A stretch of 64,000 nucleotides of DNA from a virus (IMGVR_UViG_3300029858_000001:91123-155122); one strand, 5' to 3'. Positions 1,808 through 23,500 are shown, numbered from the stretch's first letter. The notes: generated from the letters alone by a model not told the origin. Program-made: numbers and translations.

Positions 1808-4800
1808 TTGAATACTTATTTTGGTTGCCATAATCATACAATGTATTCGAACCTCCGTTTACTAGATTGTATAAATAAACCAGAAACTTTAATTGATAAA
1901 GCTATTGAATTAGGACTTTCGGGAATTGCTATCACAGATCACGAAAGTCTTTCTGCCCATATGACAGTAAATCAGTACGCTAAAAAAATCAAAGAAAAAT
2001 ATCCAAATTTTAAAATAGCATTAGGCAATGAAATTTATTTAACTAATGATAGAAGCACAGGACAAAAGTATTACCATTTTATTTTAATTGCTAAAGATGC
2101 TATAGGATATCGAGCATTAAAAGAATTAAGTTCAATTGCTTGGCAAAATTTATATGTTGATAGAAAAATGGAACGTGTTCCACTTTTAAAGAATGAATTA
2201 AAATCAGTAGTAGAGAAGTATAAGGGACATTTAATTGCTACTACTGCATGTATTGGTGGAGAATTAGGCACTTGTCTTTTAAAGGCTGTAGAATATAAAG
2301 AACAAGAGAATAATTACGAATTATATCAAATTTTAAAACAAATAGATACTTTTCTTACTTTCTGTCAAAATTTATTTGGTGAAGACTTCTATTTAGAGAT
2401 TGCTCCATCGACTGCGGCAGATCAAAAACTTGTAAACCATATGATTTATAAAATTGGTCGTAGTTATGGAATTAAGGTAGAAGTTGCCACCGATAGTCAT
2501 TATTTAACGAAAGAAGATAGACCAATTCATAAGGCTTATCTTAATTCAAAAGATGGAGAACGAGAAGTTGACAAGTTTTATGAATTTGCTCATTTAATGA
2601 CTTATGATGAAGTTTTTGATTTAATTACCCCTTGTTTTATATATTTAGATATTGAAGAGCAGCCAGAAAAAATAGCTAAAGAAATTTTAAATAATACTCT
2701 TGAAATTCAAAATAAAATTGAAGATTTTTCTCTTGAGAGAAAACAAATAATTCCAAAAGTAGAAGTATTAGATTATAAAAAAGGTTTTATTCCTTTAGAC
2801 TGGATTAATAAATATCCTATTATTTGTTCTTTAATTAATAGTGATAATATTCAAGAACGATATTGGATAAACGAATGTATTAAAGCCTTACAAGAAAAAA
2901 AACTTTATTATAGTGAAAATTATTTAGCTCGTCTTGAAATTGAAGCTGACATTATAAGAGATATTGGCGAAAAATTAGATGATTGCCTTTTTGCTTATTT
3001 CAATACTTTTAAACATTATATTGACTTGTTTTGGGATTGTGGTTCTATCGTAGGTCCTGGACGTGGTTCGGCCACAGGTTTCTTATCTAACTATTTATTG
3101 GGAATAACCCAATTGGATCCAATTCGATGGGGCCTACCATATTGGAGATTTTTAAATAAAGAGAGAGCCGAATTACCTGATATTGATATTGATTTGGCTC
3201 CTTCAAAACGTCCAGCGATTTTTGAAGCTATTCGCAAAGAACGTGGAGAGTTAGGTTTAATTCAGGTCGCTACATTTGGTACTGAAACTACTAAATCTGC
3301 TATCCTTACGGCTTGTAGAGGTTATAGGTCTGATAAATATCCAAATGGTATTGATGTAGATGAAGCTCAATATATGTCCTCTCTTATTCCACAAGAACGT
3401 GGATTTTTATGGGAAATTAATGATGTTATTTATGGTAATGAAGAAAAAGATAGAAAACCGGTTAAAACATTTATTAATAAAGTAAATGAATATCCAGGGC
3501 TTCTTGATATAATTATTTACATTGGTGGTATCGTTAATAAACGTTCTTCCCATGCTTCTGGTGTTATTCTTTATGGTGATGATCCATATGATACAGCAGC
3601 ATTTATGAGAACACCAAGTGGTAGTTTAATCACTTGTTGGGACTTACATCAGACCGAGGCAGCAGGTGATACGAAATATGATTTCCTTGTTACTGAAGCT
3701 TCTGATAAAATTATTACTTGTTATGAATTATTATTAAAGGCAAAAGAAATTCCTAACTTATCTTTGAGAGATTTCTATAATCAATATATTCATCCAGAAG
3801 TAATAGATACAACTGATCAAAAAATTTGGGATCATCTTGCAGCTGGAGATGTATTAGACTGTTTCCAGTTTTCTACTGGTGTAGGATTAGCTATTGCTAA
3901 AAAATTAAAACCACAAGACCCTATGGAAATGACTGCGGCTAATGCTATGATGCGTCTTATGTCTGAAAAAGGTAAAGAATCACAGCAAGATAGATTTTAT
4001 CGTATTCAACATCAAGGCATTCAAGCATTTGATAAAGAAATGAAACAACATCATTTGCCGCAAGAGCTTATTGATAAATTTCATAAGCATTGTGATAAAT
4101 ATTATGGTTGTTGTCCTTTGCAAGAGCAAATGATGGAAATCCTTATGGACATAGCCCATTTTACATTAGGTGAAGCCAATTCTGCCCGTAAAGTTGTCGC
4201 TAAAAAACAAATGGCTAAAATTCCTCAATTAAAAGAACAAGTATTTAGTCGTTTTGATAATAAAAATGATGCAGAATATTTTTGGGAAACAGCAGTAGCA
4301 CCGCAATTAGGATATGCATTTTCATTAAATCATAGTTTACCTTATAGTTTTGTAGCCATTCAAATGATTTATTTCGTTATTCATTATAATCCTATCTATT
4401 GGAATTGTGCTTGTTTGATTGTTAATAGTGGTTCTTTGGAAGATAATAGTGAAGAAGAGATCGTAGATATTTATGACCCTGAAGCAGATGATTTGGCTAA
4501 TGGAGTTACTTTTGAAGATTTGCCTGATAAAAAATCTAAAGTAAGAAAAACTAATTCTACTGACTATGGAAAGATTGCTAAAGCTATTGGAGACATTCGT
4601 AAAGCTGGTATTCAAGTAAGTCTTGCTGATATTAATAAATCAGAATTTAGTTTTATTCCTGATATTGAGAATAACCAGATTCTATTTGGCTTAAAAGGTA
4701 TGCTAAATGTTGGTGATGATGTAGTTAAAACTATTATTGAAAATAGACCTTATAAATCCCCCAGAGATTTTTTAAATAAGGTTAATCCTAATAAACAAGC

Positions 4801-5788
4801 AATGATTTCACTTATTAAAGGTGGAGCATTTGATCATATGATGGATAGAAAACTTTGTATGGTCTGGTATATTTGGGAAACTTGCGATAAAAAGAAAAAT
4901 CTTAATCTTCAAAATTTAGCTACTTTAATGAAATTCAATCTTCTTCCTGCGGACACTCTTGAACGGCAGCAAGCTTTACACATTTATGAATTTACTCGTT
5001 ATTTAAAACAAATTTGTAAATATGATAAAGTTTATTATAAATTGGATGATAGAGCTATTGATTTTTTACAAAAAATTGATAAAGATAGTTTAATTCAAAA
5101 TAAAGATTCTAATTTTTATTTAAATATTAAAGATTGGAATGATAAAGTTTATCAAGGCTGGATGGATATTTATCGTAAACAAATTGCTGATAATAAAGAA
5201 GAAATTTTAAATAAATTAAATGAAATTATATTTAAAGACGATTGGAAAAAATATTGTCCTAAAGTAAATTATTCAGCTTGGGAAATGGAAGTATTATGCT
5301 TCTATTATCATGAACATGAATTGGCTCAAGTAAATCAAAGCAAATATGGATTTGCTGATTTTTATAGTTTACCTGAAGATCCAGTAGTAGAAAGAAGTTT
5401 TGTTAAAGCTGGAAAAACAATAAATATTTATTATTTATCTAAATTATGCGGCACTTGTATTGCTAAGAATAAAAATAAAAGTATTGTAACAATTCTTACT
5501 CCAACAGGAGTAGTAAATGTAAAATTTAGAAAAGAATATTTTACATTATTCGATAAACAAATTTCTCAAAAACAACCTGATGGAACTAAAAAAATTATTG
5601 AAAAATCTTGGTTTAATCGCGGTAATATGATTGTGGTTCAGGGCATTCGTTCAGGTGATGATTTCATTGCTAAAAAATATGCCTCAACTGCGGGTCATCA
5701 ACTTTATCATATTGATACTATTCAATCAAATGGGGATTTAATTTTAAGAAGTGAACGATATCAAGGAGTAGCAGAAGATGAAGAATAA
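1808..5788 (+). CDS. dnaE: DNA polymerase III alpha subunit, DnaE-type, with N-terminal PHP domain. No TAG in 1326 codons.
   Basis: PHP motifs HNHTMYS and ITDHES. Polymerase core GPGRGSATGFLSNYLLGIT. TTG start 7 nt after AAGGAGG; TAA is in frame just upstream. Confidence 0.9.
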   Translation: MNTYFGCHNHTMYSNLRLLDCINKPETLIDKAIELGLSGIAITDHESLSAHMTVNQYAKKIKEKYPNFKIALGNEIYLTNDRSTGQKYYHFILIAKDAIGYRALKELSSIAWQNLYVDRKMERVPLLKNELKSVVEKYKGHLIATTACIGGELGTCLLKAVEYKEQENNYELYQILKQIDTFLTFCQNLFGEDFYLEIAPSTAADQKLVNHMIYKIGRSYGIKVEVATDSHYLTKEDRPIHKAYLNSKDGEREVDKFYEFAHLMTYDEVFDLITPCFIYLDIEEQPEKIAKEILNNTLEIQNKIEDFSLERKQIIPKVEVLDYKKGFIPLDWINKYPIICSLINSDNIQERYWINECIKALQEKKLYYSENYLARLEIEADIIRDIGEKLDDCLFAYFNTFKHYIDLFWDCGSIVGPGRGSATGFLSNYLLGITQLDPIRWGLPYWRFLNKERAELPDIDIDLAPSKRPAIFEAIRKERGELGLIQVATFGTETTKSAILTACRGYRSDKYPNGIDVDEAQYMSSLIPQERGFLWEINDVIYGNEEKDRKPVKTFINKVNEYPGLLDIIIYIGGIVNKRSSHASGVILYGDDPYDTAAFMRTPSGSLITCWDLHQTEAAGDTKYDFLVTEASDKIITCYELLLKAKEIPNLSLRDFYNQYIHPEVIDTTDQKIWDHLAAGDVLDCFQFSTGVGLAIAKKLKPQDPMEMTAANAMMRLMSEKGKESQQDRFYRIQHQGIQAFDKEMKQHHLPQELIDKFHKHCDKYYGCCPLQEQMMEILMDIAHFTLGEANSARKVVAKKQMAKIPQLKEQVFSRFDNKNDAEYFWETAVAPQLGYAFSLNHSLPYSFVAIQMIYFVIHYNPIYWNCACLIVNSGSLEDNSEEEIVDIYDPEADDLANGVTFEDLPDKKSKVRKTNSTDYGKIAKAIGDIRKAGIQVSLADINKSEFSFIPDIENNQILFGLKGMLNVGDDVVKTIIENRPYKSPRDFLNKVNPNKQAMISLIKGGAFDHMMDRKLCMVWYIWETCDKKKNLNLQNLATLMKFNLLPADTLERQQALHIYEFTRYLKQICKYDKVYYKLDDRAIDFLQKIDKDSLIQNKDSNFYLNIKDWNDKVYQGWMDIYRKQIADNKEEILNKLNEIIFKDDWKKYCPKVNYSAWEMEVLCFYYHEHELAQVNQSKYGFADFYSLPEDPVVERSFVKAGKTINIYYLSKLCGTCIAKNKNKSIVTILTPTGVVNVKFRKEYFTLFDKQISQKQPDGTKKIIEKSWFNRGNMIVVQGIRSGDDFIAKKYASTAGHQLYHIDTIQSNGDLILRSERYQGVAEDEE

Positions 5789-6699: not shown

Positions 6700-7986
6700 A
6701 TGTATATAATTAAACGTGATGGTACAGTTGTATTATTTGATAAAAATAAAATAATTAATGCTATTAACAAAGCATTTATAGAAGTCGATGGATAGTTATA
6801 TGAAAATGATACAGCTACTGATATTGCTAATGATATTGAATCTTGGATAAATAAATGTCCAGATGGTAGTATTGAAGTAGAAGATATCCAAGATATAATT
6901 GAAGATTATCTAATGCAGTCAGAACGACGTGACGTTGCTCGGGCCTATATTAGATATAGATATAAAAAAGAAGTAGCTCGATAGAAAAAAGATGATTTTA
7001 TTCAAGCTATTAGAAAAAAATTAGATGGTAAAGATATTAAAAATCAAAATGCTAATGTAGATGAAGCATCATTCGGTGGCCGTATTGGTGAAGCCAGTAG
7101 TGTGGTAACTAAACAGTTAGCTTTAGATTATATTGTATCTCCCATGACTCGTAAAAATCATTTAGAAAATATAATTTATACTCATGATCTTGATGCTTAT
7201 TATGTTGGTTCTCATAATTGTTTAAGTATTCCTTTTGATGATTTACTTGCTAATGGATTTAATACACGCCAAACAGATGTACGTCCAGCAGGTTCAGTGA
7301 ATACAGCTTTTCAATTAGTGGCTGTTATTTTCCAAATTCAAAGTCTTTCTCAATTTGGTGGCGTTAGTGCGACCCATCTTGATTGGACTATGGTTCCTTA
7401 TGTCCGTAAATCTTTTTATAAGCATTATCGTGATGGTATGAAATACTTATGCAATTGTAATTGGAATTTAGATAACTATTTAGAAGATAGTGATACCTAT
7501 AAAAAAATCATAGATATTCCGATTAATGATTATTCAGCTTATCTAAATGAAGCAGATGATGCTGGAGATTTTGATAAAGTATATCAATACGCTAGGGATA
7601 TGACTTTAAGAGAAGTCCATCAAGCAGTAGAAGGTATGTATCATAACCTTAATACTTTACAATCTCGTTCAGGTAATTAGTTACCATTTACTTCTATTAA
7701 TTATGGTACTTGCACTCTTCCAGAAGGAAGAATGATTATTAAAGCTCTTTTGGATGTATCTATCGAAGGTATTGGTAAATTACATAAAACATCTATTTTC
7801 CCTTGCGGAATTTTTCAGTGCATGAAAGGTGTTAATCGTGAAGAAGGAGACCCAAATTACGATTTATTTAAACTCGCATTACGTTCAACCGCCACAAGAT
7901 TGTACCCAAATTATGCTAATGTCGATTGGTCTGGAAACGCAGGGTATGACATTAATGATCCTCGTACCTACTTTTCTACAATGGGT
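6700..7986 (+). CDS. nrdD: Anaerobic ribonucleotide reductase NrdD, exon 1 (ATP-cone plus catalytic N-terminal part). In-frame TAGs at 6793, 6979 and 7678.
   Basis: ATP-cone N-terminus MYIIKRDGTVVLFDKNKIINAINKAF. The frame ends at ...FSTMG; the conserved MGCR continues only when joined to exon 2. The last exon nucleotide is T, as expected for a group I 5' splice site. Confidence 0.8.
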
Positions 7987-8836
7987 AAGCGAAAACTCAG
8001 CCCATTTAAAATCTTTTGAACCGCGCCAGCGGGTGTCTCTATAAAGAGGCTAACGGTTAGGTCTTAATATAATTGGCTGTAATATTAAGATGAGACCGTG
8101 CTAAAATTCATTATAATATTCATATAAAGGAGGTGTCCTTAATGTGGATATATAAAATAACAAATATTCAAAATAATAAAGTATATATTGGTTAGTCTAT
8201 TAGACCAATTAATCAAAGATTTCAAAGACATATAAATGATGCTCTTAACAATATTCTTGATACTCATTTTGCCAGAGCAATAAGAAAATATGGTAAAGAA
8301 AATTTTATTATAGAAGAAATTGATATAGCAAATACGCAAGAAGAATTAAATGAAAAAGAGTAGTATTGGATTAAATATTATAATTCAGTAATAGATGGTT
8401 ATAATGAAACAGACGCTATTTCTAAATGCGGTGGAAATACTTATCAATCTAAAACTGACAAAGAAATAGAAGCTATTAAAGATAAAATTCGACAAACTAA
8501 AGTAGGAAGTAAAAATCCTATGGCTAAAAAAATAAAAAGAATAAATATTTTTACTAATGAAATAGATATTTTTGATACAATTATTAGTTGTGCTAAAGCT
8601 TGTGGAATTCAAAGTGGTAAAACTTCTATTACAAATAGATTAAATGGAAAAATTAAAAGTCCATTTAAAAATACTTGGAAATTTGAATATTATGATGAAT
8701 AAAGTGTATCGACTATCCCTGATGAATGTAAGGGAGTAGGCTTGGAGATAGGCACCAGGCCGAAGCGGAAGACAACTCTATCTTATAGATAGAATGATAA
8801 TATAGTCAGTACCAATGGTGACATTGGATAATTACG
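7987..8836 (+). mobile_element. Group I self-splicing intron in nrdD, carrying a GIY-YIG homing endonuclease ORF
   Basis: About 850 nt interrupt NrdD between ...STMG and CRTANGYDINGFGQLKDGRGN. GC-rich paired elements flank an internal ORF. An S-like element aatatagtca lies near 8796. The intron ends in G immediately before exon 2. Confidence 0.6.
8142..8702 (+). CDS. GIY-YIG homing endonuclease (intron-encoded) with two in-frame TAG codons
   Basis: MWIYKITNIQNNKVYIG(TAG)SIRPINQRFQRH is the GIY-YIG motif. The C-terminal half looks like a DNA-binding domain. RBS AAAGGAGG upstream. TAG at 8193 and 8361. Confidence 0.8.
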
Positions 8837-9835
8837 TGTAGAACAGCCAATGGATATGATATTAATGGTTTTGGTCAATTAAAAGATGGTAGAGGAAATA
8901 TTTGTCCTGTGACTATTATCCTTCCAACTATTGCTATGAATTGTAAAATTAATTTTGAAAAAGATGTAAAAGATCACCATTCTTTTGATGATAATTCTAT
9001 TTTAATTGATAGATTCCTTTATAATCTGGATCAAAAAATTAATGAAGCAAGAATCCAATTAATGGAACGTTTTGAATGGATTTGCTCACAAGATCCAAAA
9101 TCTGCAAAGTTTATGTATGAAAATAATCTAATGGCAGGATATATTCCAGAAGAAGGAATTAGAAGTGCCCTTAAGCATGGTACATTAGCTATGGGATAGA
9201 TTGGTTTGGCTGAAACTCTTCAAATCCTTATTGGCAAAGATCATACTACTAAAGAAGGTATGGAATTAGCTAAAAAGATTGAGGGATTATTTAAACAACG
9301 TTGTGCAGAATTTAAAGAACAATTTAAACTGAATTTTGGAGTTTATTATTCTCCTGCTGAAAATTTATGTTATACATCAATGCAGAAGTTTAAAGAGAAG
9401 TATGGCATTATTCCTAATGTGTCTGATAAAGAATTCTTTACTAATTCTATGCACGTTCCAGTTTGGAAGAAAATGTCTCCTTTTGATAAAATTGATATTG
9501 AAAGTCAATTAACAGGCTATTCTTCTGCTGGATGCATTACTTATGTAGAATTAGACTCTACTGTAAAACATAATATTGATGCTCTTGAACAAATTGTTAA
9601 TTATGCTATGGATAAGGATATTCCTTATTTTGCAGTAAATGTACCTAATGATACTTGCCTTGACTGTGGATATTGTGATGAATTTAATGATAAGTGCCCT
9701 GAATGCGGTAGCACTAATATTCAATAGTTACGTCGTGTAACCGGTTATTTAACTGGAAATTATAAAACTGCTTTTAATTATGGTAAACAGAAAGAAGTAG
9801 AAGCACGAGTAAAGCATACGGGGTAGATGGAATGA
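8837..9835 (+). CDS. nrdD: NrdD exon 2, containing the glycyl-radical C-terminus. TAG at 9197 and 9725; TGA stop.
   Basis: CRTANGYDINGFGQLKDGRGNICPVTIILPTIA aligns to E. coli NrdD MGCRSF...DGRGNLGVVSLNLPRIA. C-terminus reads CPECGSTNIQ(TAG)LRRVTGYL...NYGKQKEVEARVKH. Confidence 0.8.
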
Positions 9836-10179: not shown

Positions 10180-10853
10180 ATTATTCTAAAAGACCTTTAA
10201 AAAAGCATTATAAAATAAAAGATAAATTAGAAAAAGCTACTGAAGTATTAGATAAAAAAATTGACTTGGAATTAGAAGCAATTATAAAAATAATATTTTC
10301 TTGGATAGCTAATGATGAAAAAATTAATACAAAAGAGCATCGAGATACTCTAATAAATTTATTTTATAAGGCATTAGAAAATCTTTATTCTGAAATTAAT
10401 ATATAGTTAGGGAAGATTTATAAAACAGTAGCTCCTTTTAATTTAAAAGATATAACAGACTTAACTTTTCAAGAAGATGGAAAAACATTAGATGAACGAA
10501 TTACTAAATATTTAGATGATTTAGAAGAAAAAAGATTATCTGGCGATTTTCCAGATAATTTAAAAAACTTCGGTGCAAATATGTATTCTCGTCTATTAAA
10601 TAATGAAGGTAAATATTTATTTACTCATTTAATGGAAATGAAAATAAAACCTGTAGCTTCAATACTTGTAATTGAAACAGGAACTTGCGATGATCTATGC
10701 GGTGAATGGGCTGGAGAATACCCCGTAGGAGAAGACGTTCCTCTGCCTCCTTACCATACTAATTGTTAGTGTTCTGCTTATTATATTGAAACTGATGATG
10801 AAGATGATGTTAATGATTTAGATTTAGAAGTGGAGGAAATAAAGGATATATGA
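10176..10853 (+). CDS. Protein with a Mu gpF / SPP1 gp7-like C-terminal motif, two TAG codons
   Basis: CDDLCGEWAGEY...LPPYHTNC(TAG)CS resembles the Phage_Mu_F D-x-x-C...PP-H-x-N-C-R-C motif. ATGA overlaps on both sides. Confidence 0.45.
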
Positions 10854-11338
10854 AATATGCAGGAATTATAAAAAATGATATTGCCGCAGCTCCGGGAGTA
10901 TGTGTCTCTTTTTTCACCCAAGGTTGCCCACACCATTGTTTTGGATGCCATAATCCTGAAACTTGGGATTTTGAAAAAGGTAAAGAATTCACCAATGAGA
11001 CTTTTGGAGAAATATTTCAAGCACTTCAAGCCAATGGTATTCATAGAGATTTCTGCATAATGGGAGGCGAACCATTATGTGAACAAAATCAATTACTTAC
11101 TCTACTTCTTATTAATACAATTAAAGAAAAGCTTCCTGATACTAAAATTTATGTTTGGACTGGATATTATTATGATGATTTAATTAAGCAAACTACTAAT
11201 GGTAAACTTCAAGAAATTCTTAAAAAAGCTGATGTATTAATTGATGGTCCATATATTCAGTCTCAAAGAGATATTACCCTATCAATGAGAGGTAGTAAAA
11301 ATCAAAATATCATAAATTTAAAGGAGATTAATAAATGA
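10850..11338 (+). CDS. nrdG: Anaerobic RNR activating enzyme NrdG (radical SAM)
   Basis: GCPHHCFGCHN cluster with a glycine-rich SAM site. It lies immediately after nrdD and is translationally coupled (ATGA). No TAG. Confidence 0.85.
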   Translation: MKYAGIIKNDIAAAPGVCVSFFTQGCPHHCFGCHNPETWDFEKGKEFTNETFGEIFQALQANGIHRDFCIMGGEPLCEQNQLLTLLLINTIKEKLPDTKIYVWTGYYYDDLIKQTTNGKLQEILKKADVLIDGPYIQSQRDITLSMRGSKNQNIINLKEINK

Positions 11339-17201: not shown

Positions 17202-19850
17202 TTAATCCCAATCATGCCAAATTAAATGGCTATTTAAAAATTTTGTTTCTAAGTAATCAACTGAATATCCCTATTGTTTATGCTATTCAGTTAATTTATT
17301 AGGCTAATCATTTAAGAATGAAGATCCTCCACCAGAGAAAGACATTATATTCCAAGAATTATTAGTATAAATTCCCCAATAGCTCTCAGGTGTGGCATCT
17401 TCTGAAGCAAAATAATTTATTAGTAAAATTTCTCCATTATTAGTATTTACTAATAAATTAGGTAAAATTAATTCATTATTAGTTATTGAAATATTATTAC
17501 CATTAATTATATTTTGAATTATAGTCATTAATGTTGGAGTTGGGTTATCTGCTCCAGCATTAGGAGATTTATTTATCTTATAATTAAAAGTACTTGTATT
17601 ACTACTGCCTAAATAAGTTATTTTAAAATTATCACTTTGATTTGTTGTAGGAATTAAAGTAATATTTACAATTTTAGTAGGATTAGGAATGCCAGGAATA
17701 CCTTTTATATTTCCAACTAATTCCCAACTATTAGTCATTACGTCTTTTAAAATAGCTTTTTGTTCTTCAATCGTATTAGTAGGAAGTTTATTGTATTTAT
17801 AAATATCGCCACGGTTAGCATTATTATCTTCTAAACGTGTTATATTAAAGAATAAATCTCCTTTAGAGAACAATGGCCCATTATAATTAGTAGAATCCCA
17901 TATTACTTTATTGTTTAAAACACTTAATCCGCTGTCTCCAGGAGTAAATACATGAATAGGCATAGGAGCTTCTATGTTTACTAACTATTCATTTTCATTC
18001 TAAGGAATGGGTTCTCCAATTGTAAAATCTGCTTCATTTGCAACCTACTTTATTTTTGTTAAAGTAATAGGATCATTTACCAATTTAAATAAAAATTCTT
18101 CTTGATAAATATTTTCTCCCATACCTTCAGTTAAACTACTAATAACTTTATTTTGATTTTTTACATATTTTTGTTTTTCTTTATCAAAATAAAAGCTTGA
18201 AATCATTTGGGTTGTAGCAATAGGGGCAGGAGCTGTAATAGCTCCAATATATTTTCCTTCAATATATGATTCATTTACATCTGTTAAAATATAAAATTTA
18301 CCTGTAGGTTCATTAATATAAAAATCAGCTTTATAAGCTTTTGTTACATTATTATAATGTTCATTTAACCAAGAAGCTAAATCTAATACTCCAATTAAAT
18401 AATCTGCAATATTATAGGTTTCAAAAGAATAAAATATATCAGAAGCCTTGTAATTTTCTTGTATTGAAGGATTTCCATTTTTATCTTCTATAATGATACT
18501 AAATAATTTTTCTATTAAATCATTTATTATAGTTCCTAAAGGATATAGTGAATTAGGGAAAGATTTAAAAATAGAAGCTGATAATAAATAAGTATTAACT
18601 TTTTCAATTGCATCGCTATTAATCCACATATACTAAGGAATTAATTCTTTTGTTCCATCCTCTTTATAACGTTCATAAGGACGAACAGATAAATTATAAT
18701 TATTTTTTAATTCCGTATATAATTTTAAAATTTGTTTTTCCTTACTTTTTGTTATTTCATTATTTTTATTAGATAAAGGATTAAAAATGACACTTTGATC
18801 TTCTTCTTGAGTATATATAAATGAATTATTTAAATAACTACCTTCTTTAAAAAATTTACTATCCACTTTATAATAAAAATGTTTAGTATCATTAAACTAA
18901 AGATTAGTATAAAAACCTGTTTCTTCATTTTTAGAATTTTCATCTAAAGTGTAAGTCACTGTATCATCTGATAAAAAATGAAGTAAAAAATCACTAATGA
19001 TAGCAATTAATTGAACTTCTTTTTTATAAACTTTATAAGTATCATTATTTATATAATAATCGCTACTAGATAAGATACCAAAATTATGGTAAAAATTTAA
19101 TGGCCCTGTGCCAAATAGCATACCATAGTAAAAAGTAGGAGCTTTTGGTAAATCAAAAACTAACTAAGGTTTAGTTAAAGTAGCAATTTTTGTTTCACCA
19201 TTTTTATCTATGTAAGCTCTACCATCAGTATACAAATAAGCATTAGGTTCTTCCTAAGATCCTACAATATTTCTATAAACATCTTCAATACGCTATCCAC
19301 GCTATAAATAAAATTTAATTTTAGGAGTATCAGGATTAGTTAAATCTAAAGTAACATAAGGATCTCCATCTTCAATATCTATTGTCTAATGGAATACCTA
19401 AATTCGAGGAGTAACACCTGTGACACAAGCTATTAATCTATATCCAAAGCCAAAGCATTCTTCACTTTCAATATCTGATACTTCATGTAAAGAATTACCA
19501 TATTCTTCAGTATCACTTTCATCTAAATTTAGAAAAACATAAATATTATTATCATTTTCAGGAAATTCAGGAGAAACTGTTAAATTTCTATCTACATAGA
19601 TTTTTTGCCACAATGAATTAGTAAAAGATTTACCACTAGCTTTTAAATCTATCTATAAATTAGTATTATAATTAGAAGTTTCTTCATTCATAAATGAAGG
19701 ATCACCATAGTTAATAAAAATATAATCTCCTACATTTACTGGTGAAGTCCAACGCATTTGTAAGTCTCCAACCATATCTACAGCTCGGTTAGAGAATATT
19801 CTTGTTATTTTAAAATCTTGACCTTTTTGTCCGCCATAAAAACTATACAT
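17202..19850 (-). CDS. Large tail fibre / receptor-binding protein (~880 aa), TAG-rich
   Basis: Track fragments ending at 19853, 19613, 19121, 18866, 18629 and 17963 share one frame and join when TAG is read through. Asn/Thr-rich beta-rich sequence. Confidence 0.5.
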
Positions 19851-19853
19851 CAA

Positions 19854-20555
19854 TTATCCCTCCTCTTCTCCATAAGTAAAATCAATAATAATATTATATA
19901 AATCATCTTCAGAACCATCAACATAAACTCCAGCTTTGCCTTTTAAATATAAGCCTAAACCGCTTCTGTATTTAGTAACATATTGCTAATGGAGATTATT
20001 ATACTATATCCAATAGTCATTACCAGTTTCAGTCCGATCTGGAACTGTCCCTTGGCTTTTAGTTAATTCAGTTACTTTAGTTAAAAATTCATCTCTAGCC
20101 TATTTCATAATTGATGTTCCATTAGACTGTAATTCCTAGCTTAATTCTTTATTTAAGATATAATTTTTAGGATGTTGGAAACGCAATGATTTGATCACTA
20201 TATCATCATTTAATTCATAGATTCCAGTACGACCTATCATTAACCACTAACCTGCATTTGGGGTAGTCGATTCAGAAAAAGTGAACTTGGTTCCAGGAGG
20301 AGCCTAAATACCTATTTTTTTTACATTAGTATAATTAACTAAAATATTTTTATTAAAAATATCAATACGATTTTCCATATAGTCAGTTAATCCTAAATCT
20401 CCAACCAATGTAGCCTCCGTAGAATCGTTCTCTCTATTTTGATAAACCATACTGTATATTAATTCATTATGATTATTTTTATTAGTAGAAATTAATCCTC
20501 CAGATCCTCCATAATCTTCAAGATTATAAACAATCTATTTTAATTCAATACTCAT
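19854..20555 (-). CDS. Tail/baseplate protein (~233 aa), TAG-containing
   Basis: ATG 20555 with GGAGG RBS. The frame is consistent through to TAA 19854-56. Confidence 0.4.
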
Positions 20556-20565
20556 TGTTACCTCC

Positions 20566-23500
20566 TTATACTCTTGTTAAAGCTTCATTTGTTGTAATTG
20601 ACATATTCCCATTATAAGTTAAAGGAAGGGTATATTGAGTTATAACAAATTCCCCTTTAATATTACTTTTTTTATCATCTATATAAATTAAATTATTAGG
20701 CTCTAAATAATATCTAGGCGCGCAATTAATAGTGACAGTTAAATTATAAATTAAATACTAATATAGCATTTCTCTTATATAATCAAATGCCGTGCTACCT
20801 GTCCCACTAGAACTAAACAATTTCATTTGCCCAGGTTTTAACGCGCAATAGGCTTGTCCTTCTAGTGTATATTCTTCAATTTTCTAAATTAAATCTGCTT
20901 CGCCAGTATTCTCGAAGAAAATAATATCAGGTACATTTAATTTATATAATAGACTCATATTAGTTTTAGTTAATGCTTTAGTGCGTCGGCCTATCTTATT
21001 AACAGAATACTTTGATACTAACTAATCAACATCAATAAAATCTAACCAATAAGTTATTAAACTAGGATCAATGTAAATCGCCGGATTCCATCCATCCCAA
21101 GTATCTATTTTTTCTTTATCTGAGTTAGCTGAATCAATTTGATTATTCCATTCCTCATGCCAAGTTTCATTCTATGGGTCAAATAACTATTTGCGCCATA
21201 AATATTCATTATTAATTTTAGCTAATAATTCATCATCATAGTCTCCTTTTTGAGACCCATTTTCGTTATTTAATAAAGCCTATCTAAATAATTCTTCGCG
21301 CCATTCATGACAAGGAGTGCCAATTAACGTAAAATAAAAATTATCTTCATAATCAAATTCTGGCTCTTCTGGAGTATAAGTAATAATTTTTATTTTACTA
21401 TTTTCTGGTAAAATTGAAAAATCAATAATATTAGAATTATAAGCATTGGTAATTTCTTCAATTATTTCATTTAAAGTATAATTCCCATTATCTCGTAAAA
21501 TAAAAATCTTTTTTATTATATCTTCCTAATCTTTTAAAACTTTTAACTAATCTTTTTTTCCTTCTACTGGATCTAAAAATGGAAGAAGTAAGTCACTACC
21601 TTTTTTATTATCAGAACTAGATGAATTATTATCTTTTTTAGTATCTGAAGAAGTTTCTCCTTTAGAGCTTACTCCAAAGTAAGGGTCTAGCTAGCTCTAT
21701 GATTTAATAGGATTAGTATTTTTATGCCAAGAATCAGGAACACCAAACCCAGGATCTAAATCAGGAGTATTGGGTTTGTCAGGATAGCCTATTGGACCAT
21801 CGCCTGATGGATTATCGCTAGGAATATCATTTATGTCTGTATAGTTATAAATTAAAGTAATATCATCTATTAGGTCATCTTTATTCGTTTTATAATATTC
21901 TAATAAAACTTTAACTAATTCTTTATGTTCTTCTTCTGATATTAAAGTTTTATTTTCTGAATCTTTAATAGCAGAATAATTATCAAGAATGCTATAATTG
22001 TATTCTTGTTTATTGCCTTTAGAATCATAAGAATTTAATTTATAAATTAATAGACCAGTACTTGAAACTAATAAAACATTATTTTGATTAATAAAATTAA
22101 AATCATATTTTTTATTAGTTTCATCAAAATTTATATCTTTTATAATTTTTAGATAATAATTCTATTTTACTTTATTTATTAAATTATTTATATTAGTTAA
22201 ATTTAATTTTTCTGATAATTCAAAAATCTATATCCATTCGCCCTTTTTATTATAATATCCTAAAACATCAACATTATCTATAATTCTTTTCTATACTAAA
22301 TAAAATTCTTTGTTTTTTACTTTTGTAGTATCATCTTTTTTATCATCAGAATCATTAGGAGGTTTAGAAGATCCATCTGGATCTATACTAAAATCAGGAT
22401 CTAACTAATTTTGTTTGTCTCTCTAAGTACCTCTATGCCAAGAGTCAGGAATACCAAACCCAGGATCTAAATCAGGAGCATTGGGTCTATCAGGATAACC
22501 TATTGGTTCGTCATCAGAAGAACTGTTATCATCTGAAGTATCTTCTTCATCTTTTTTAGGATAAACTCCAAAAGCCAAATGGGTAAAATCAATAATATCA
22601 GTTAAATCTTCAAGATATATAAAATCAATAATCTCTCTATTTAATAATACTACTTTATAATATCTTATCTAGTCAGAAAAAATAACCTTATAATATAAGA
22701 TAAACTGATCACCATTGTAAAAAGAATAATTCTATAAAATATTATCTATTATATCTTTTTTAATGGCTGTTTCTATTGAACTATCAGTAATTTCACTATG
22801 ATTTTCAGTATAAATTATTTCAATAGCTTTTTGTTCAGGGGTCTAGTTATAATTATTTTTTTCATATTCAAATAAATAATAAGCATGATCTCCATTGCCT
22901 CTAGTGATATCCCACATATACTAATTAGCTAAATCAATTTGTGGTTTTTCATCAATAGCCAAATGATATTGAATAGTTTTGGTAACCCCATTAGCATTTG
23001 TTTTATCGCCCCAAACAATAAAATCATTTTTTATATTTTCATATTTAGGGCTATTATAATAAGATAAAGCATCTTTAGCATCAATAAAAGTATAATAATA
23101 CTTACTATCAGAAAAAGCTTTAATATAATAATTATCATTAATCTAAGTAATTGGAGTATAATAATAATTTAAATAATTCTTTTTCTGCTAAAATACAAAA
23201 TGACCATCTAAATCATAAAAATATTCATAATTACCTAAAGATTCAATAATTTTATCAAGAACAGAAGTTACTGTATCTCCTGCAGAAAAGACTAATTCTC
23301 CAGGATAAGTAAAATCTGTTTCTTGATATCCAACGTCTTGTCCATAAATAAATTTATGCTACAAAAAATTTTCATCTTCGGGCGCATTTTCACTAATTAC
23401 AAAACTTTTATAATCTTTTGAAAACCATATAGGGTTTTGACCTACATATTTTGTACTAAGTTTAGCTGTCATATCTACATCATTAATTATAACATTCTAT

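What the first reader, a model, noticed from the sequence alone, without database searches (positions are those of the whole stretch)
6700..9835. nrdD interrupted by a group I intron carrying a GIY-YIG homing endonuclease that itself uses the recoded TAG
NrdD exon 1 ends at ...FSTMG, on a U, as expected for a group I 5' splice site. 850 nt later the frame resumes at CRTANGYDINGFGQLKDGRGN. This restores the conserved MGCR...DGRGN block seen in E. coli and T4 NrdD. The intervening segment has GC-rich paired regions, an S-like element, a terminal G, and an internal RBS-led GIY-YIG ORF. This is the same architecture as the T4 nrdD (sunY) intron with I-TevII. Because the endonuclease contains in-frame TAGs, the intron is adapted to the recoded lineage rather than freshly acquired.
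Basis: partly seen in the sequence, partly recalled or inferred. Interest (0 to 1): 0.65.

Follow-up and report, generated by a model that had tools for sequence, protein, structure and literature searches.

The report
Mobile group I intron in nrdD

Summary
Joining window 6700-7986 to 8837-9835 gives one in-frame 761-aa NrdD that aligns without a gap across the junction (TMG|CRT) to solved NrdD structures. The 850 nt between them (7987-8836) is a group I intron. It has a P1 helix with a U.G pair at the 5' splice site, a terminal G, a P3/P7 pseudoknot, and P4-P6, P7.1/P7.2, P8, P9 and P10. Across 37 distinct relatives, 97.7% of the proposed pair cells form pairs and 28 of 68 pairs show compensatory changes. 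Close relatives carry intron-less alleles (ATGGGA|TGTAGA). A sequence profile of the family hits the proven T4 nrdD (sunY) ribozyme core at E=3.5e-19. The non-coding nrdD intron of Lactococcus phage 949 sits at the same site. Rfam's group I model does not detect this intron, probably because of two extra hairpins between P3 and P4. The endonuclease ORF (8142-8702, in the P6a loop) resembles I-TevI, not I-TevII. It has two in-frame TAGs where standard-code homologues have CAA or CAG. The insertion site, ORF position and endonuclease lineage all differ from T4 sunY. Verdict: a new member of a known kind, of modest interest. Splicing itself is inferred, not shown.

The parts
6700..7986 (+). nrdD exon 1 (aa 1-429, ATP-cone plus the N-terminal part of the NRDD barrel). 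It ends ...FSTMG on U7986. In-frame TAGs at 6793, 6982 and 7678.
7980..7986 (+). P1 5' strand (last 7 exon nt, AAUGGGU). U7986 forms the U.G wobble with G8000 at the 5' splice site.
   Evidence: U.G in 37/37. The -7 exon position pairs with the guide sequence as GC in 18, CG in 12 and AU in 6.
7987..8836 (+). Group I intron, 850 nt, subgroup IA2-like with a sunY-type core.
7996..8006 (+). Internal guide sequence. 8000-8006 (GCCCAUU) is the P1 3' strand. 7996-7999 pairs with exon 2 (8837-8841) as P10, with one bulged exon nt in this copy.
   Evidence: P10 90% of cells paired, with GC compensation in 2 sequences
8012..8018 (+). P3 5' strand UCUUUUG. It pairs with 8766-8772 (CGGAAGA).
   Evidence: 100% paired, with two compensatory positions (UA/CG 24:13 and 33:4). 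It is in the same position as T4 sunY P3 (UCUGCC/GGCAGA) in the Rfam alignment.
8021..8050 (+). Two extra hairpins between P3 and J3/4, here called P3.1 (8021-8024/8029-8032) and P3.2 (8035-8040/8045-8050). They are absent from T4 sunY and present in the phage 949 intron.
   Evidence: 3 and 4 compensatory pairs. P3.1 is listed as an optional group I pairing in PMC3873408.
8053..8099 (+). P4 (8053-8058/8094-8099) and P5 (8062-8070/8082-8090), with the J4/5-J5/4 internal loop.
   Evidence: P4 UA/CG/AU; P5 3 compensatory pairs
8100..8122 (+). P6 5' strand (8100-8102) and P6a 5' strand (8106-8122).
   Evidence: P6: CG/GC/UA and UA/GC/CG/AU. One search shows a 17-bp P6a duplex with 8684-8700, conserved with covariation in all ORF-bearing relatives.
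8129..8133 (+). Shine-Dalgarno GGAGG of the endonuclease ORF, 8 nt before the ATG. It lies partly within a possible AAGGA/UCCUU hairpin.
   Evidence: The hairpin is seen only in the window and L061.
8142..8702 (+). GIY-YIG homing endonuclease ORF (186 aa, I-TevI-like) in the L6a loop. In-frame TAG (read as Gln) at 8193-8195 and 8361-8363. Its last codons form the 3' strand of P6a (8684-8700).
8703..8705 (+). P6 3' strand (AGU), immediately after the ORF stop codon.
8709..8715 (+). P7 5' strand U-c-GACUA, with bulged C8710. G8711-C8807 is the presumed guanosine-binding pair. It pairs with 8803-8808.
   Evidence: U-A to A-U compensation at the pair next to the bulge. The sequence is identical to T4 sunY.
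8716..8761 (+). P7.1 (8716-8720/8731-8735) and P7.2 (8739-8745/8755-8761), the subgroup IA2 peripheral helices lying between P7 and P3'.
   Evidence: P7.2: 4 compensatory pairs; P7.1 is invariant because it was part of the search pattern
8766..8772 (+). P3 3' strand CGGAAGA.
8773..8796 (+). P8 hairpin (closing pairs C8773-G8796 and A8774-U8795; inner stem 8777-8783/8787-8793).
8797..8808 (+). J8/7 (AUAAUA; the family consensus and T4 read AAGAUA) followed by the P7 3' strand UAGUCA. Together they make up the 'S' element.
8812..8827 (+). P9 hairpin CCAAUG-GUGA-CAUUGG with a GNRA loop.
   Evidence: 5 compensatory pairs
8836..8836 (+). Terminal (omega) G, the last intron nucleotide.
   Evidence: invariant G273 in the alignment
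8837..9835 (+). nrdD exon 2 (aa 430-761). It starts with the catalytic Cys codon (CRTANG...) and contains the Zn-ribbon cysteines and the glycyl-radical motif RRVTGYL. In-frame TAGs at 9197, 9725 and 9824. No start codon before GTG 8909.
10850..11338 (+). nrdG-like activase (Fer4_12 / radical SAM). It is context showing that the class III RNR system is complete.

Best explanation
Window 7987-8836 is a mobile group I intron of the IA2 type whose catalytic core is homologous to the T4 nrdD/sunY ribozyme. It is inserted in the phage nrdD gene between the Gly429 and Cys430 codons, immediately 5' of the catalytic thiyl-radical cysteine.

Inferred mechanism:
- The nrdD pre-mRNA folds so that the guide sequence (8000-8006) pairs with the last 7 exon nt (P1, with a U7986.G8000 wobble).
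- Free guanosine bound at the G8711-C8807 pair of P7 attacks after U7986.
- The terminal G8836 then replaces the bound guanosine. P10 (7996-7999 with 8837-8841) aligns exon 2, and the exons are ligated to give an mRNA for a 761-aa NrdD.
- The I-TevI-like GIY-YIG endonuclease ORF is looped out of P6a, which a 17-bp helix closes. The protein is made only when TAG is decoded as Gln.
- The endonuclease presumably cleaves intron-less nrdD alleles (…ACAATGGGA|TGTAGAAC…) in co-infecting relatives. Repair then copies the intron in, together with flanking exon sequence.

What is shown: the exon junction, the RNA structure and its covariation, homology to a proven ribozyme, the presence/absence polymorphism, endonuclease family membership, and TAG recoding. 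What is inferred: splicing, endonuclease activity and its target, and homing.
For: - Junction: the spliced ORF is one uninterrupted NrdD that aligns across the junction to 8p23, 9d3x and T4 NrdD.
- Presence/absence: intron-less alleles in close relatives (L011, L014, L003, L002) read ATGGGA|TGTAGA exactly where the intron sits. L014 is 98-100% identical in long blocks but only 89-94% identical within about 250 nt of the site, which looks like co-conversion.
- Family size: the exact 31-nt P7-P7.1 core occurs in 75 IMG/VR contigs. Boundaries at this nrdD site could be defined in 58 loci, including natural ORF-less versions of 238-287 nt.
- Covariation: on 37 distinct cores, 97.7% of pair cells form pairs, against 38-46% when partners are slid. 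28 of 68 pairs have compensatory changes. The covariation score is 0.372 against 0.120, reached by 0 of 500 shuffles. The synonymous third position of the Thr codon covaries with the guide sequence (GC 18, CG 12, AU 6). P3 and P7, which form the pseudoknot, each show compensatory changes.
- Folding: unconstrained MFE folding recovers P1, P3, P3.1, P3.2, P4, P5, P6a, P7.1, P7.2, P8 and P9, z = -7.0.
- Link to a proven ribozyme: 31 of 31 nt are identical to the T4 sunY core. The family profile hits the T4 sunY core at E=3.5e-19 and the phage 949 nrdD intron at E=4e-38. T4 sunY scores 105 bits on Rfam RF00028.
- Endonuclease: Pfam GIY-YIG, TIGR01453 above its cut-off, and the I-TevI catalytic domain 1MK0 at 2.8e-9 with the GIY, YIG, Arg, Glu and Asn positions aligned.
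- Literature: phage nrdD genes are frequently split by group I introns, and splicing has been confirmed by metatranscriptomes in Jug phages (PMC12880540). A non-coding nrdD intron is reported in phage 949 (PMC3653736).
Against: - Rfam RF00028 gives no hit in the window at E<=10, and none on ORF-less relatives at E<=1.
- No RNA data exist for this genome, so splicing is inferred.
- In this copy and in L061, J8/7 reads AUAAUA, where at least 90% of the family and T4 read AAGAUA. This is a catalytically sensitive segment.
- P10 in this copy needs a bulged exon nucleotide.
- P7.1 is invariant in the alignment only because it was part of the search pattern, so it carries no covariation evidence.
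- The relatives were collected with a pattern taken from this intron, so the sample is biased toward close core relatives.
Confidence: 0.93

Rival explanations
1. Genes in pieces: a free-standing GIY-YIG endonuclease gene has split nrdD into two genes, and their products assemble into an active enzyme without RNA splicing, as in Aeromonas phage Aeh1 nrdA split by mobE.
For: Public annotations of relatives list two nrdD CDSs plus an endonuclease (Thomasclavelia phage TR-TP2; Lactococcus phage 949). A precedent for a functional split RNR is cited in PMC3653736.
Against: Exon 2 has no start codon before GTG 8909, so the catalytic Cys430 and the DGRGN block would be lost. About 290 nt of non-coding flanks are conserved as an RNA structure with compensatory changes, including exon-to-intron pairing in P1. 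The core is homologous to the T4 sunY ribozyme. ORF-less versions of 238-287 nt sit at the same site.
Confidence: 0.02
2. A decaying, splicing-defective intron copy: the element is a group I intron by descent, but in this lineage it no longer splices efficiently, so nrdD is a recent pseudogene or depends on a helper.
For: There are two substitutions in the otherwise at least 90% conserved J8/7 (AAGAUA to AUAAUA), shared with L061. A one-nucleotide deletion in the guide region weakens P10. Rfam gives no hit.
Against: All 68 modelled pairs are standard pairs in the window copy. Both exons and the 186-aa endonuclease ORF are intact, and every stop-like interruption is a TAG. nrdG is intact downstream. 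The same J8/7 variant is kept in a second, independently assembled genome with an intact ORF (L061).
Confidence: 0.05
3. An intein or another protein-level insertion, or a group II intron.
For: Inteins are common in RNR genes, often at catalytic residues (PMC3653736).
Against: The nrdD frame hits TGA 11 codons into the insert. The internal ORF is in a different frame with its own Shine-Dalgarno sequence and ATG. Pfam finds no Hint or intein domain and no reverse transcriptase. The RNA topology is group I: a P3/P7 pseudoknot, a U.G pair at the 5' splice site, and a terminal G.
Confidence: 0

Closest known systems
Phage T4 nrdD (sunY) group I intron with I-TevII
   Same: Same host gene (class III RNR large subunit) and a homologous ribozyme core. 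P7-P7.1 is identical over 31 nt. P1 guide sequence, P3, J3/4, P4, J6/7, P7.2, P3', P8, J8/7 and P9 align, with a profile hit at E=3.5e-19. Both have IA2 features (P7.1/P7.2 between P7 and P3') and no P2. Both carry a GIY-YIG-class endonuclease.
   Different: The T4 intron is inserted about 130 codons upstream (T4 aa ~172, corresponding to about aa 300 here), and T4's MGCRS is uninterrupted. The I-TevII ORF lies 3' of the core, not in P6a. The endonuclease here shows no detectable similarity to I-TevII. This intron has two extra hairpins between P3 and J3/4. Rfam RF00028 scores T4 at 105 bits but does not score this intron.
Phage T4 td intron with I-TevI
   Same: The endonuclease is I-TevI-like: the GIY-YIG catalytic domain matches 1MK0/1LN0 at 2.8e-9, and TIGR01453 is above its cut-off. 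The ORF is looped out of P6a, with its 3' end running into the core pairing. The td comparison for ORF position rests on my knowledge of the td structure.
   Different: The host gene is different (thymidylate synthase). The ribozyme core here is closer to sunY. The endonuclease is only 186 aa, against 245 aa for I-TevI, and its C-terminal DNA-binding region was not matched to a solved structure.
Lactococcus phage 949 (and AM-series) nrdD non-coding intron
   Same: Same insertion site (CCAATGGGT|...G|TGCAGAAGC, that is PMG|CRS) and the same intron family, including the two extra hairpins. Profile hit at E=4e-38. It is reported in the literature as a non-coding intron splitting nrdD (PMC3653736).
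   Different: It has no endonuclease ORF (about 315 nt). Its host phage uses the standard code and infects Lactococcus. Its P7.1 sequence has diverged (UCCGUG...).
Group I introns fragmenting nrdD in Jug (jumbo gut) phages
   Same: Gut phages whose nrdD is split by group I introns and endonucleases, with splicing confirmed by metatranscriptome reads (PMC12880540). Several loci carrying this core come from 345-396 kb contigs (L086, L090, L099).
   Different: Those are different phage lineages predicted to infect Bacteroides or Phocaeicola. I did not test whether their nrdD introns belong to this family.
Recoded group I intron endonuclease of Agate phages (Borges et al.)
   Same: An intron-encoded homing endonuclease that carries in-frame reassigned stop codons. 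It was proposed to delay endonuclease production until the alternative code is active (10.1101/2021.08.26.457843).
   Different: In that case the codon is TGA read as Trp; here it is TAG read as Gln. Here the host gene nrdD also carries six TAGs, so the endonuclease is not selectively recoded relative to its host gene.
HNH-encoding group I intron in nrdD of Thomasclavelia phages TR-TP1/TP2 (and L015, L021, L024)
   Same: It interrupts the same conserved TMGCR block of closely related nrdD genes. It gives a weak Rfam Intron_gpI hit (27.9 bits, E=7.6e-5) and has an S element and a GNRA-capped P9.
   Different: It is an unrelated intron family with a different 5' half. It is inserted 4 nt upstream (AU|G of the Met codon) and carries an HNH endonuclease or no ORF.

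Membership tests
Group I intron | P1 helix between the internal guide sequence and the 5' exon end, with a U.G wobble at the splice site | tested here: met
   AAUGGGU (7980-7986) pairs with GCCCAUU (8000-8006). U.G is present in 37/37 relatives. The exon -7 position covaries with the guide sequence as GC 18, CG 12, AU 6.
Group I intron | Terminal guanosine (omega G) as the last intron nucleotide | tested here: met
   G8836 is invariant in the family alignment. The position is fixed by comparison with intron-less alleles.
Group I intron | Conserved core topology: P3-P7 pseudoknot enclosing P4-P5-P6, with P8 between P3' and P7' | tested here: met
   All helices are supported: 97.7% of cells paired against 38-46% when slid, and 28 compensatory pairs including pairs in P3, P4, P5, P6, P7, P8 and P9. 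MFE folding recovers the nested helices.
Group I intron | Guanosine-binding site: a G-C pair in P7 next to a bulged nucleotide, with conserved J6/7 and J8/7 | tested here: inconclusive
   U8709-[C8710 bulge]-G8711:C8807 is present, and the neighbouring pair shows UA/AU compensation. However, J8/7 in this copy carries two substitutions relative to the family and T4 (AUAAUA against AAGAUA). Guanosine binding cannot be tested computationally.
Group I intron | Match to the curated covariance model Rfam RF00028 at its gathering score (50 bits) | tested here: not met
   No hit in the window even at E<=10, and none in ORF-less relatives at E<=1. As a control, T4 sunY scores 105.3 bits.
Group I intron | Homology to an experimentally proven self-splicing group I intron | tested here: met
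   The family profile hits the T4 nrdD/sunY core at E=3.5e-19 over profile positions 6-236 of 257. A 31-nt stretch is exactly identical.
Group I intron | GTP-dependent self-splicing or ligated exons in RNA | not testable with these tools
   No transcript data are available. This needs RT-PCR, RNA-seq or in vitro splicing.
Subgroup IA2 (T4-type phage introns) | Extra helices P7.1 and P7.2 between the P7 5' strand and P3' | tested here: met
   P7.1 is at 8716-8735 and P7.2 at 8739-8761. P7.2 has four compensatory pairs. The arrangement is the same as in T4 sunY, where Rfam treats this stretch as an insertion.
GIY-YIG homing endonuclease (I-TevI-like) | GIY-YIG catalytic domain with the conserved Tyr, Tyr, Arg, Glu and Asn positions | tested here: met
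   Pfam PF01541 at 3.4e-10 (40.5 bits against a 22.6 cut-off). TIGR01453 at 73.9 bits against 56.05. The alignment to I-TevI 1MK0 shows IYKI, VYIGQS, RFQRH, E..YWI and GYN. This requires TAG read as Gln at codons 18 and 74.
GIY-YIG homing endonuclease (I-TevI-like) | Site-specific cleavage of the intron-less allele, leading to intron homing | not testable with these tools
   Only indirect evidence exists: intron-plus and intron-minus alleles in near-identical genomes, and reduced exon identity around the site.
Class III (anaerobic) ribonucleotide reductase NrdD | NRDD barrel, catalytic Cys on the finger loop, C-terminal Zn-ribbon and glycyl-radical motif | tested here: met
   This holds after splicing only. 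Pfam NRDD at 5.3e-143 and Gly_radical. TMGCRT aligns with the T4 SPMGCRS (Cys290 by my calculation). CxxC...CxxC and RRVTGYL are present.

The most novel reading that the evidence does not exclude
The two in-frame TAGs, the first at codon 18, may act as a translational gate. The endonuclease would then be made only in the phase of infection when TAG is decoded as Gln, which would separate homing from early nrdD expression. Separately, this sunY-like subfamily has extra P3.1/P3.2 hairpins, specialises on the catalytic-Cys codon of NrdD, and is invisible to Rfam's group I model. It could be a distinct, widespread and under-annotated intron lineage. It may compete for the same 10-bp target with an unrelated HNH intron inserted 4 nt away.
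Probability: 0.2. Interest if true: 0.45.

Novelty: new member of a known kind. Interest (0 to 1): 0.25.

Why it matters
It matters mainly for annotation. nrdD in this phage, and in Thomasclavelia phages TR-TP1/TP2 and Lactococcus phage 949-like phages, should be annotated as one spliced gene rather than as two fragments plus an endonuclease.

It also shows that a large, covariation-supported family of sunY-like introns escapes Rfam RF00028. The family is present in at least 75 IMG/VR contigs and 9 MAG contigs. Intron surveys based on that model will therefore under-count phage introns.

The TAG-containing endonuclease is a further example of a selfish element evolving inside an alternative-code phage lineage. 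A TGA example is already published. It offers a simple test of the idea that recoding times the expression of particular genes.

None of this changes current understanding of group I introns or of stop-codon recoding.

Tried and rejected
- Rfam at gathering threshold on the whole window and on 11 related loci found nothing.
- Rfam at E<=10 on 7900-8900 gave only chance-level hits: EBv-sisRNA-1 at 13.8 bits and HOLDH at 13.2 bits against a 319-bit cut-off. I rejected both.
- Rfam on natural ORF-less relatives gave no intron hit, so the ORF insertion is not the reason for the miss.
- My first labels for the two hairpins after the guide region were P2 and P2.1. I rejected these because the covariation-supported P3 5' strand lies upstream of them, so they sit between P3 and J3/4.
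- A weak family-profile hit at window 20275-20198 on the minus strand (E=2.9) is ordinary TAG-rich coding sequence, not a second intron. No other S-like element exists in the window.
- I tested whether the endonuclease is an I-TevII relative. It is not (BLASTP E=0.76).
- No tRNA, and so no suppressor tRNA, lies in the window.
- I rejected intein, group II intron and split-gene readings on reading frames and RNA structure.
- I did not build a custom covariance model, because the nhmmer profile already linked the family to T4 sunY.
Full report
**1. The observation**

Reading the window and translating it confirms every coordinate in the finding.
- The nrdD frame runs from 6700 to 7986 and ends ...YFSTMG on T7986.
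- It continues for only 11 codons into the insert before TGA.
- It resumes at 8837 with CRTANGYDINGFGQLKDGRGN.
- The insert is 850 nt and ends in G8836.
- Joining the two parts gives a 761-aa protein with Pfam NRDD at 5.3e-143, an ATP-cone and a Gly_radical domain.
- This protein aligns without a gap across the junction to Prevotella copri NrdD 8p23 (ATMGCRT) and to T4 NrdD (SPMGCRS).

The junction falls immediately before the Cys that corresponds to the T4 finger-loop cysteine. By my arithmetic this is residue 290. Its role as the thiyl-radical site is from my own knowledge of class III RNRs.

Exon 2 has no start codon before GTG 8909. A two-polypeptide enzyme would therefore lack this Cys.

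A radical-SAM activase (nrdG-like) follows at 10850-11338.

**2. TAG is a sense codon**
- nrdD has six in-frame TAGs and the internal ORF has two.
- With TAG read as sense, stop-free frames of at least 100 codons cover 95% of the window, against 49% under the standard code.
- TAG in the intron-less relative L011 aligns with CAA in the window (GFG*LKDG against GFGQLKDG).
- TAG327 aligns with a conserved Gln in 8p23.
- No tRNA gene lies in the window.

**3. The insert is a group I intron**

*Rfam result.* Rfam's model RF00028 does not detect it, at the gathering score or at E<=10. I therefore tested the RNA directly using relatives.

*Intron-less alleles.* A protein-guided scan of IMG/VR found 25 related nrdD loci. 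Four of them are 84-95% identical in protein (L011, L014, L003, L002). These are uninterrupted and read ...ACAATGGGA|TGTAGAAC... at exactly the point where the window has its insert.

*Family size.* A 31-nt core pattern from the insert occurs in 75 IMG/VR contigs and 9 MAG contigs. In 58 loci I could define the same boundaries, ATGGGU|...G|UGU. These include natural ORF-less versions of 238-287 nt and a near-identical 850-nt copy, L061.

*Covariation test.* I aligned 37 distinct ORF-deleted cores (A1) and scored a hand-derived structure.
- 97.7% of pair cells are standard pairs, against 38-46% when partners are slid by 1-3 columns.
- 28 of 68 pairs have compensatory changes.
- The covariation score is 0.372 against 0.120 for shuffles, reached by 0 of 500 shuffles.

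Individual helices:
- P1 has an invariant U.G pair at the splice site. The synonymous third base of the Thr codon covaries with the guide sequence (G-C 18, C-G 12, A-U 6).
- P3 (8012-8018 with 8766-8772) has two compensatory positions.
- P6 shows four pair types at one position (U-A, G-C, C-G, A-U) and three at the other.
- P7 has a bulged C next to a G-C pair, and the adjacent pair shows U-A to A-U compensation.
- P7.2, P8, P9 (GNRA loop) and P10 are also supported.

*Other structural support.*
- A 17-bp P6a helix (8106-8122 with 8684-8700) closes the ORF-containing loop. Helices of 8-17 bp with different sequences do the same in every ORF-bearing relative.
- Unconstrained folding of the ORF-replaced RNA recovers all the nested helices, including the long-range P3. 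The energy is -100.2 kcal/mol against -65.3 +/- 5.0 for shuffles (z = -7.0).

**4. Relation to known introns**

*T4 sunY.* The 31-nt P7-P7.1 stretch is 100% identical to the core of the T4 nrdD (sunY) intron. A sequence profile of A1 hits that core over nearly its full length at E=3.5e-19. T4 sunY itself scores 105 bits on RF00028. In that Rfam alignment P3, the P7.1/P7.2 insertion, P3', P8 and P9 lie where I placed them here.

The window intron differs from T4 in having two extra hairpins, at 8021-8032 and 8035-8050, between the P3 5' strand and J3/4. P3.1 is a recognised optional pairing (PMC3873408). These hairpins probably explain the Rfam miss, because ORF-less relatives are missed as well.

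*Lactococcus phage 949.* The same profile hits the nrdD intron of Lactococcus phage 949 at E=4e-38. That intron is at the identical site (PMG|CRS) and has the same extra hairpins. It is described in the literature as a non-coding intron (PMC3653736).

*How the T4 comparison fails in detail.*
- T4's intron sits about 130 codons upstream, and its MGCRS block is uninterrupted.
- The I-TevII ORF lies 3' of the core, whereas here the ORF is in L6a.
- The endonuclease shows no BLASTP similarity to I-TevII (E=0.76).
- Instead it matches the I-TevI catalytic domain (1MK0, 2.8e-9), TIGR01453 above its cut-off, and PHROG homing-endonuclease families.

The element therefore combines a sunY-type ribozyme with an I-TevI-type endonuclease in a td-like position.

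**5. The recoded endonuclease**

The 186-aa ORF belongs to a conserved endonuclease family that travels with this intron family, with up to 85% identity in L029, L039 and L050.
- At the two TAG positions in the window (codons 18 and 74), standard-code homologues have CAA or CAG.
- L061, which is 96% identical, shares TAG18 but has CAA at codon 74 and a different TAG at codon 157.
- Other copies in recoded hosts carry 1-5 TAGs at other Gln positions.

This shows ongoing CAA/CAG-to-TAG turnover inside TAG-recoded genomes. It supports residence in such a lineage, although transfer between recoded phages is equally compatible.

The idea itself is not new. A TGA-recoded group I intron endonuclease in Agate phages, with the proposal that recoding delays its synthesis, is already published (10.1101/2021.08.26.457843). 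Here the host gene is recoded too, so there is no selective recoding of the endonuclease.

**6. Mobility signatures**

The intron-less L014 allele is 98-100% identical to the window nrdD in long blocks. It drops to 89-94% for about 250 nt on either side of the insertion site. This is the pattern expected from co-conversion of flanking exons during homing.

Intron-bearing alleles always have GGU for Gly429, as the U.G pair requires. The four intron-less alleles have GGA.

**7. Caveats**
- Splicing and endonuclease activity are inferred. No RNA data exist for this genome.
- This copy and L061 carry two substitutions in J8/7 (AUAAUA against AAGAUA in at least 90% of the family and in T4).
- This copy also has a one-nucleotide deletion that leaves P10 with a bulge. 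I give about 5% to a splicing-impaired copy.
- The relatives were collected with a pattern from this intron. P7 and P7.1 are therefore invariant by construction and carry little covariation information.

**8. Verdict**

This is a real mobile group I intron of a known kind in a gene that is well known for such introns. Published examples are T4, phage 949, and Jug phages, where splicing was confirmed by metatranscriptomes (PMC12880540).

The points of modest interest are:
- the chimeric make-up of the element;
- the extra P3.1/P3.2 hairpins that hide the family from Rfam;
- the TAG-dependent endonuclease;
- an unrelated HNH intron family inserted only 4 nt upstream in the closest genomes.

Noticed in passing
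L001 4017-4895 (Thomasclavelia phage TR-TP2, PQ571310); also L015, L021, L024: A second, unrelated group I intron family interrupts the same TMGCR block 4 nt upstream, at AU|G of the Met codon. It carries an HNH endonuclease ORF, or is ORF-less (~400 nt) in L021. It occurs in the closest relatives of this phage. In the GenBank records nrdD is annotated as two CDSs plus an HNH endonuclease. Rfam Intron_gpI scores 27.9 bits (E=7.6e-5), below the gathering score.
   Followed up: partly
L085 (aa ~220, GG|VSATHLDW); L018 and L023 (aa ~318-329); L021 and L025 (aa ~603-606); T4 site (about aa 300 in window numbering): Related nrdD genes carry insertions at four or more further positions. L085 has the same P7-P7.1 core sequence at a different site. 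nrdD is therefore a multi-site intron target in these gut and rumen phages.
   Followed up: partly
window 6700-9835 against L014 3001-5268: The intron-less L014 allele is 98-100% identical to the window in long blocks. Identity falls to 89-94% within about 250 nt of the intron site, which looks like a co-conversion tract. Identity is 50-74% in a hypervariable stretch at spliced nt 1351-1480 (NCKINFEKDVKDHHSFDD...).
   Followed up: partly
window 1808-5788 against 6700-9835: The 1326-codon PHP/DnaE-like polymerase ORF contains no TAG at all, while the adjacent nrdD has six and the intron ORF has two. Recoded-codon density is very uneven between neighbouring replication and nucleotide-metabolism genes.
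   Followed up: no
window 8797-8802: J8/7 reads AUAAUA in the window and in L061, whereas at least 90% of family members and T4 sunY read AAGAUA. This is a lineage-specific change in a catalytically important joiner.
   Followed up: partly
window 8127-8141: The endonuclease Shine-Dalgarno sequence lies in a possible small hairpin (AAGGA-GGUG-UCCUU) just before the ATG. This is reminiscent of translational control of T4 intron ORFs. It is conserved only in the near-identical L061 copy.
   Followed up: partly
L065, L070, L086, L053 (ORF-less family members): Rfam RF00028 fails to detect even compact 238-287-nt members of this covariation-supported family at E<=1, although it scores the homologous T4 sunY core at 105 bits. 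Surveys that rely on that model will miss this lineage.
   Followed up: yes
L104-L112 (GTDB MAG contigs): The exact 31-nt core occurs in nine contigs binned as Clostridia, Bacilli, Erysipelotrichales or Treponema MAGs from rabbit, deer, goat and human samples. These are probably phage or prophage DNA. I did not examine them.
   Followed up: no
window 18500-22500, minus strand: The structural-gene region is broken into many short code-11 ORFs by frequent TAGs. A weak profile hit at 20275-20198 (E=2.9) is coding sequence, not an intron.
   Followed up: yes
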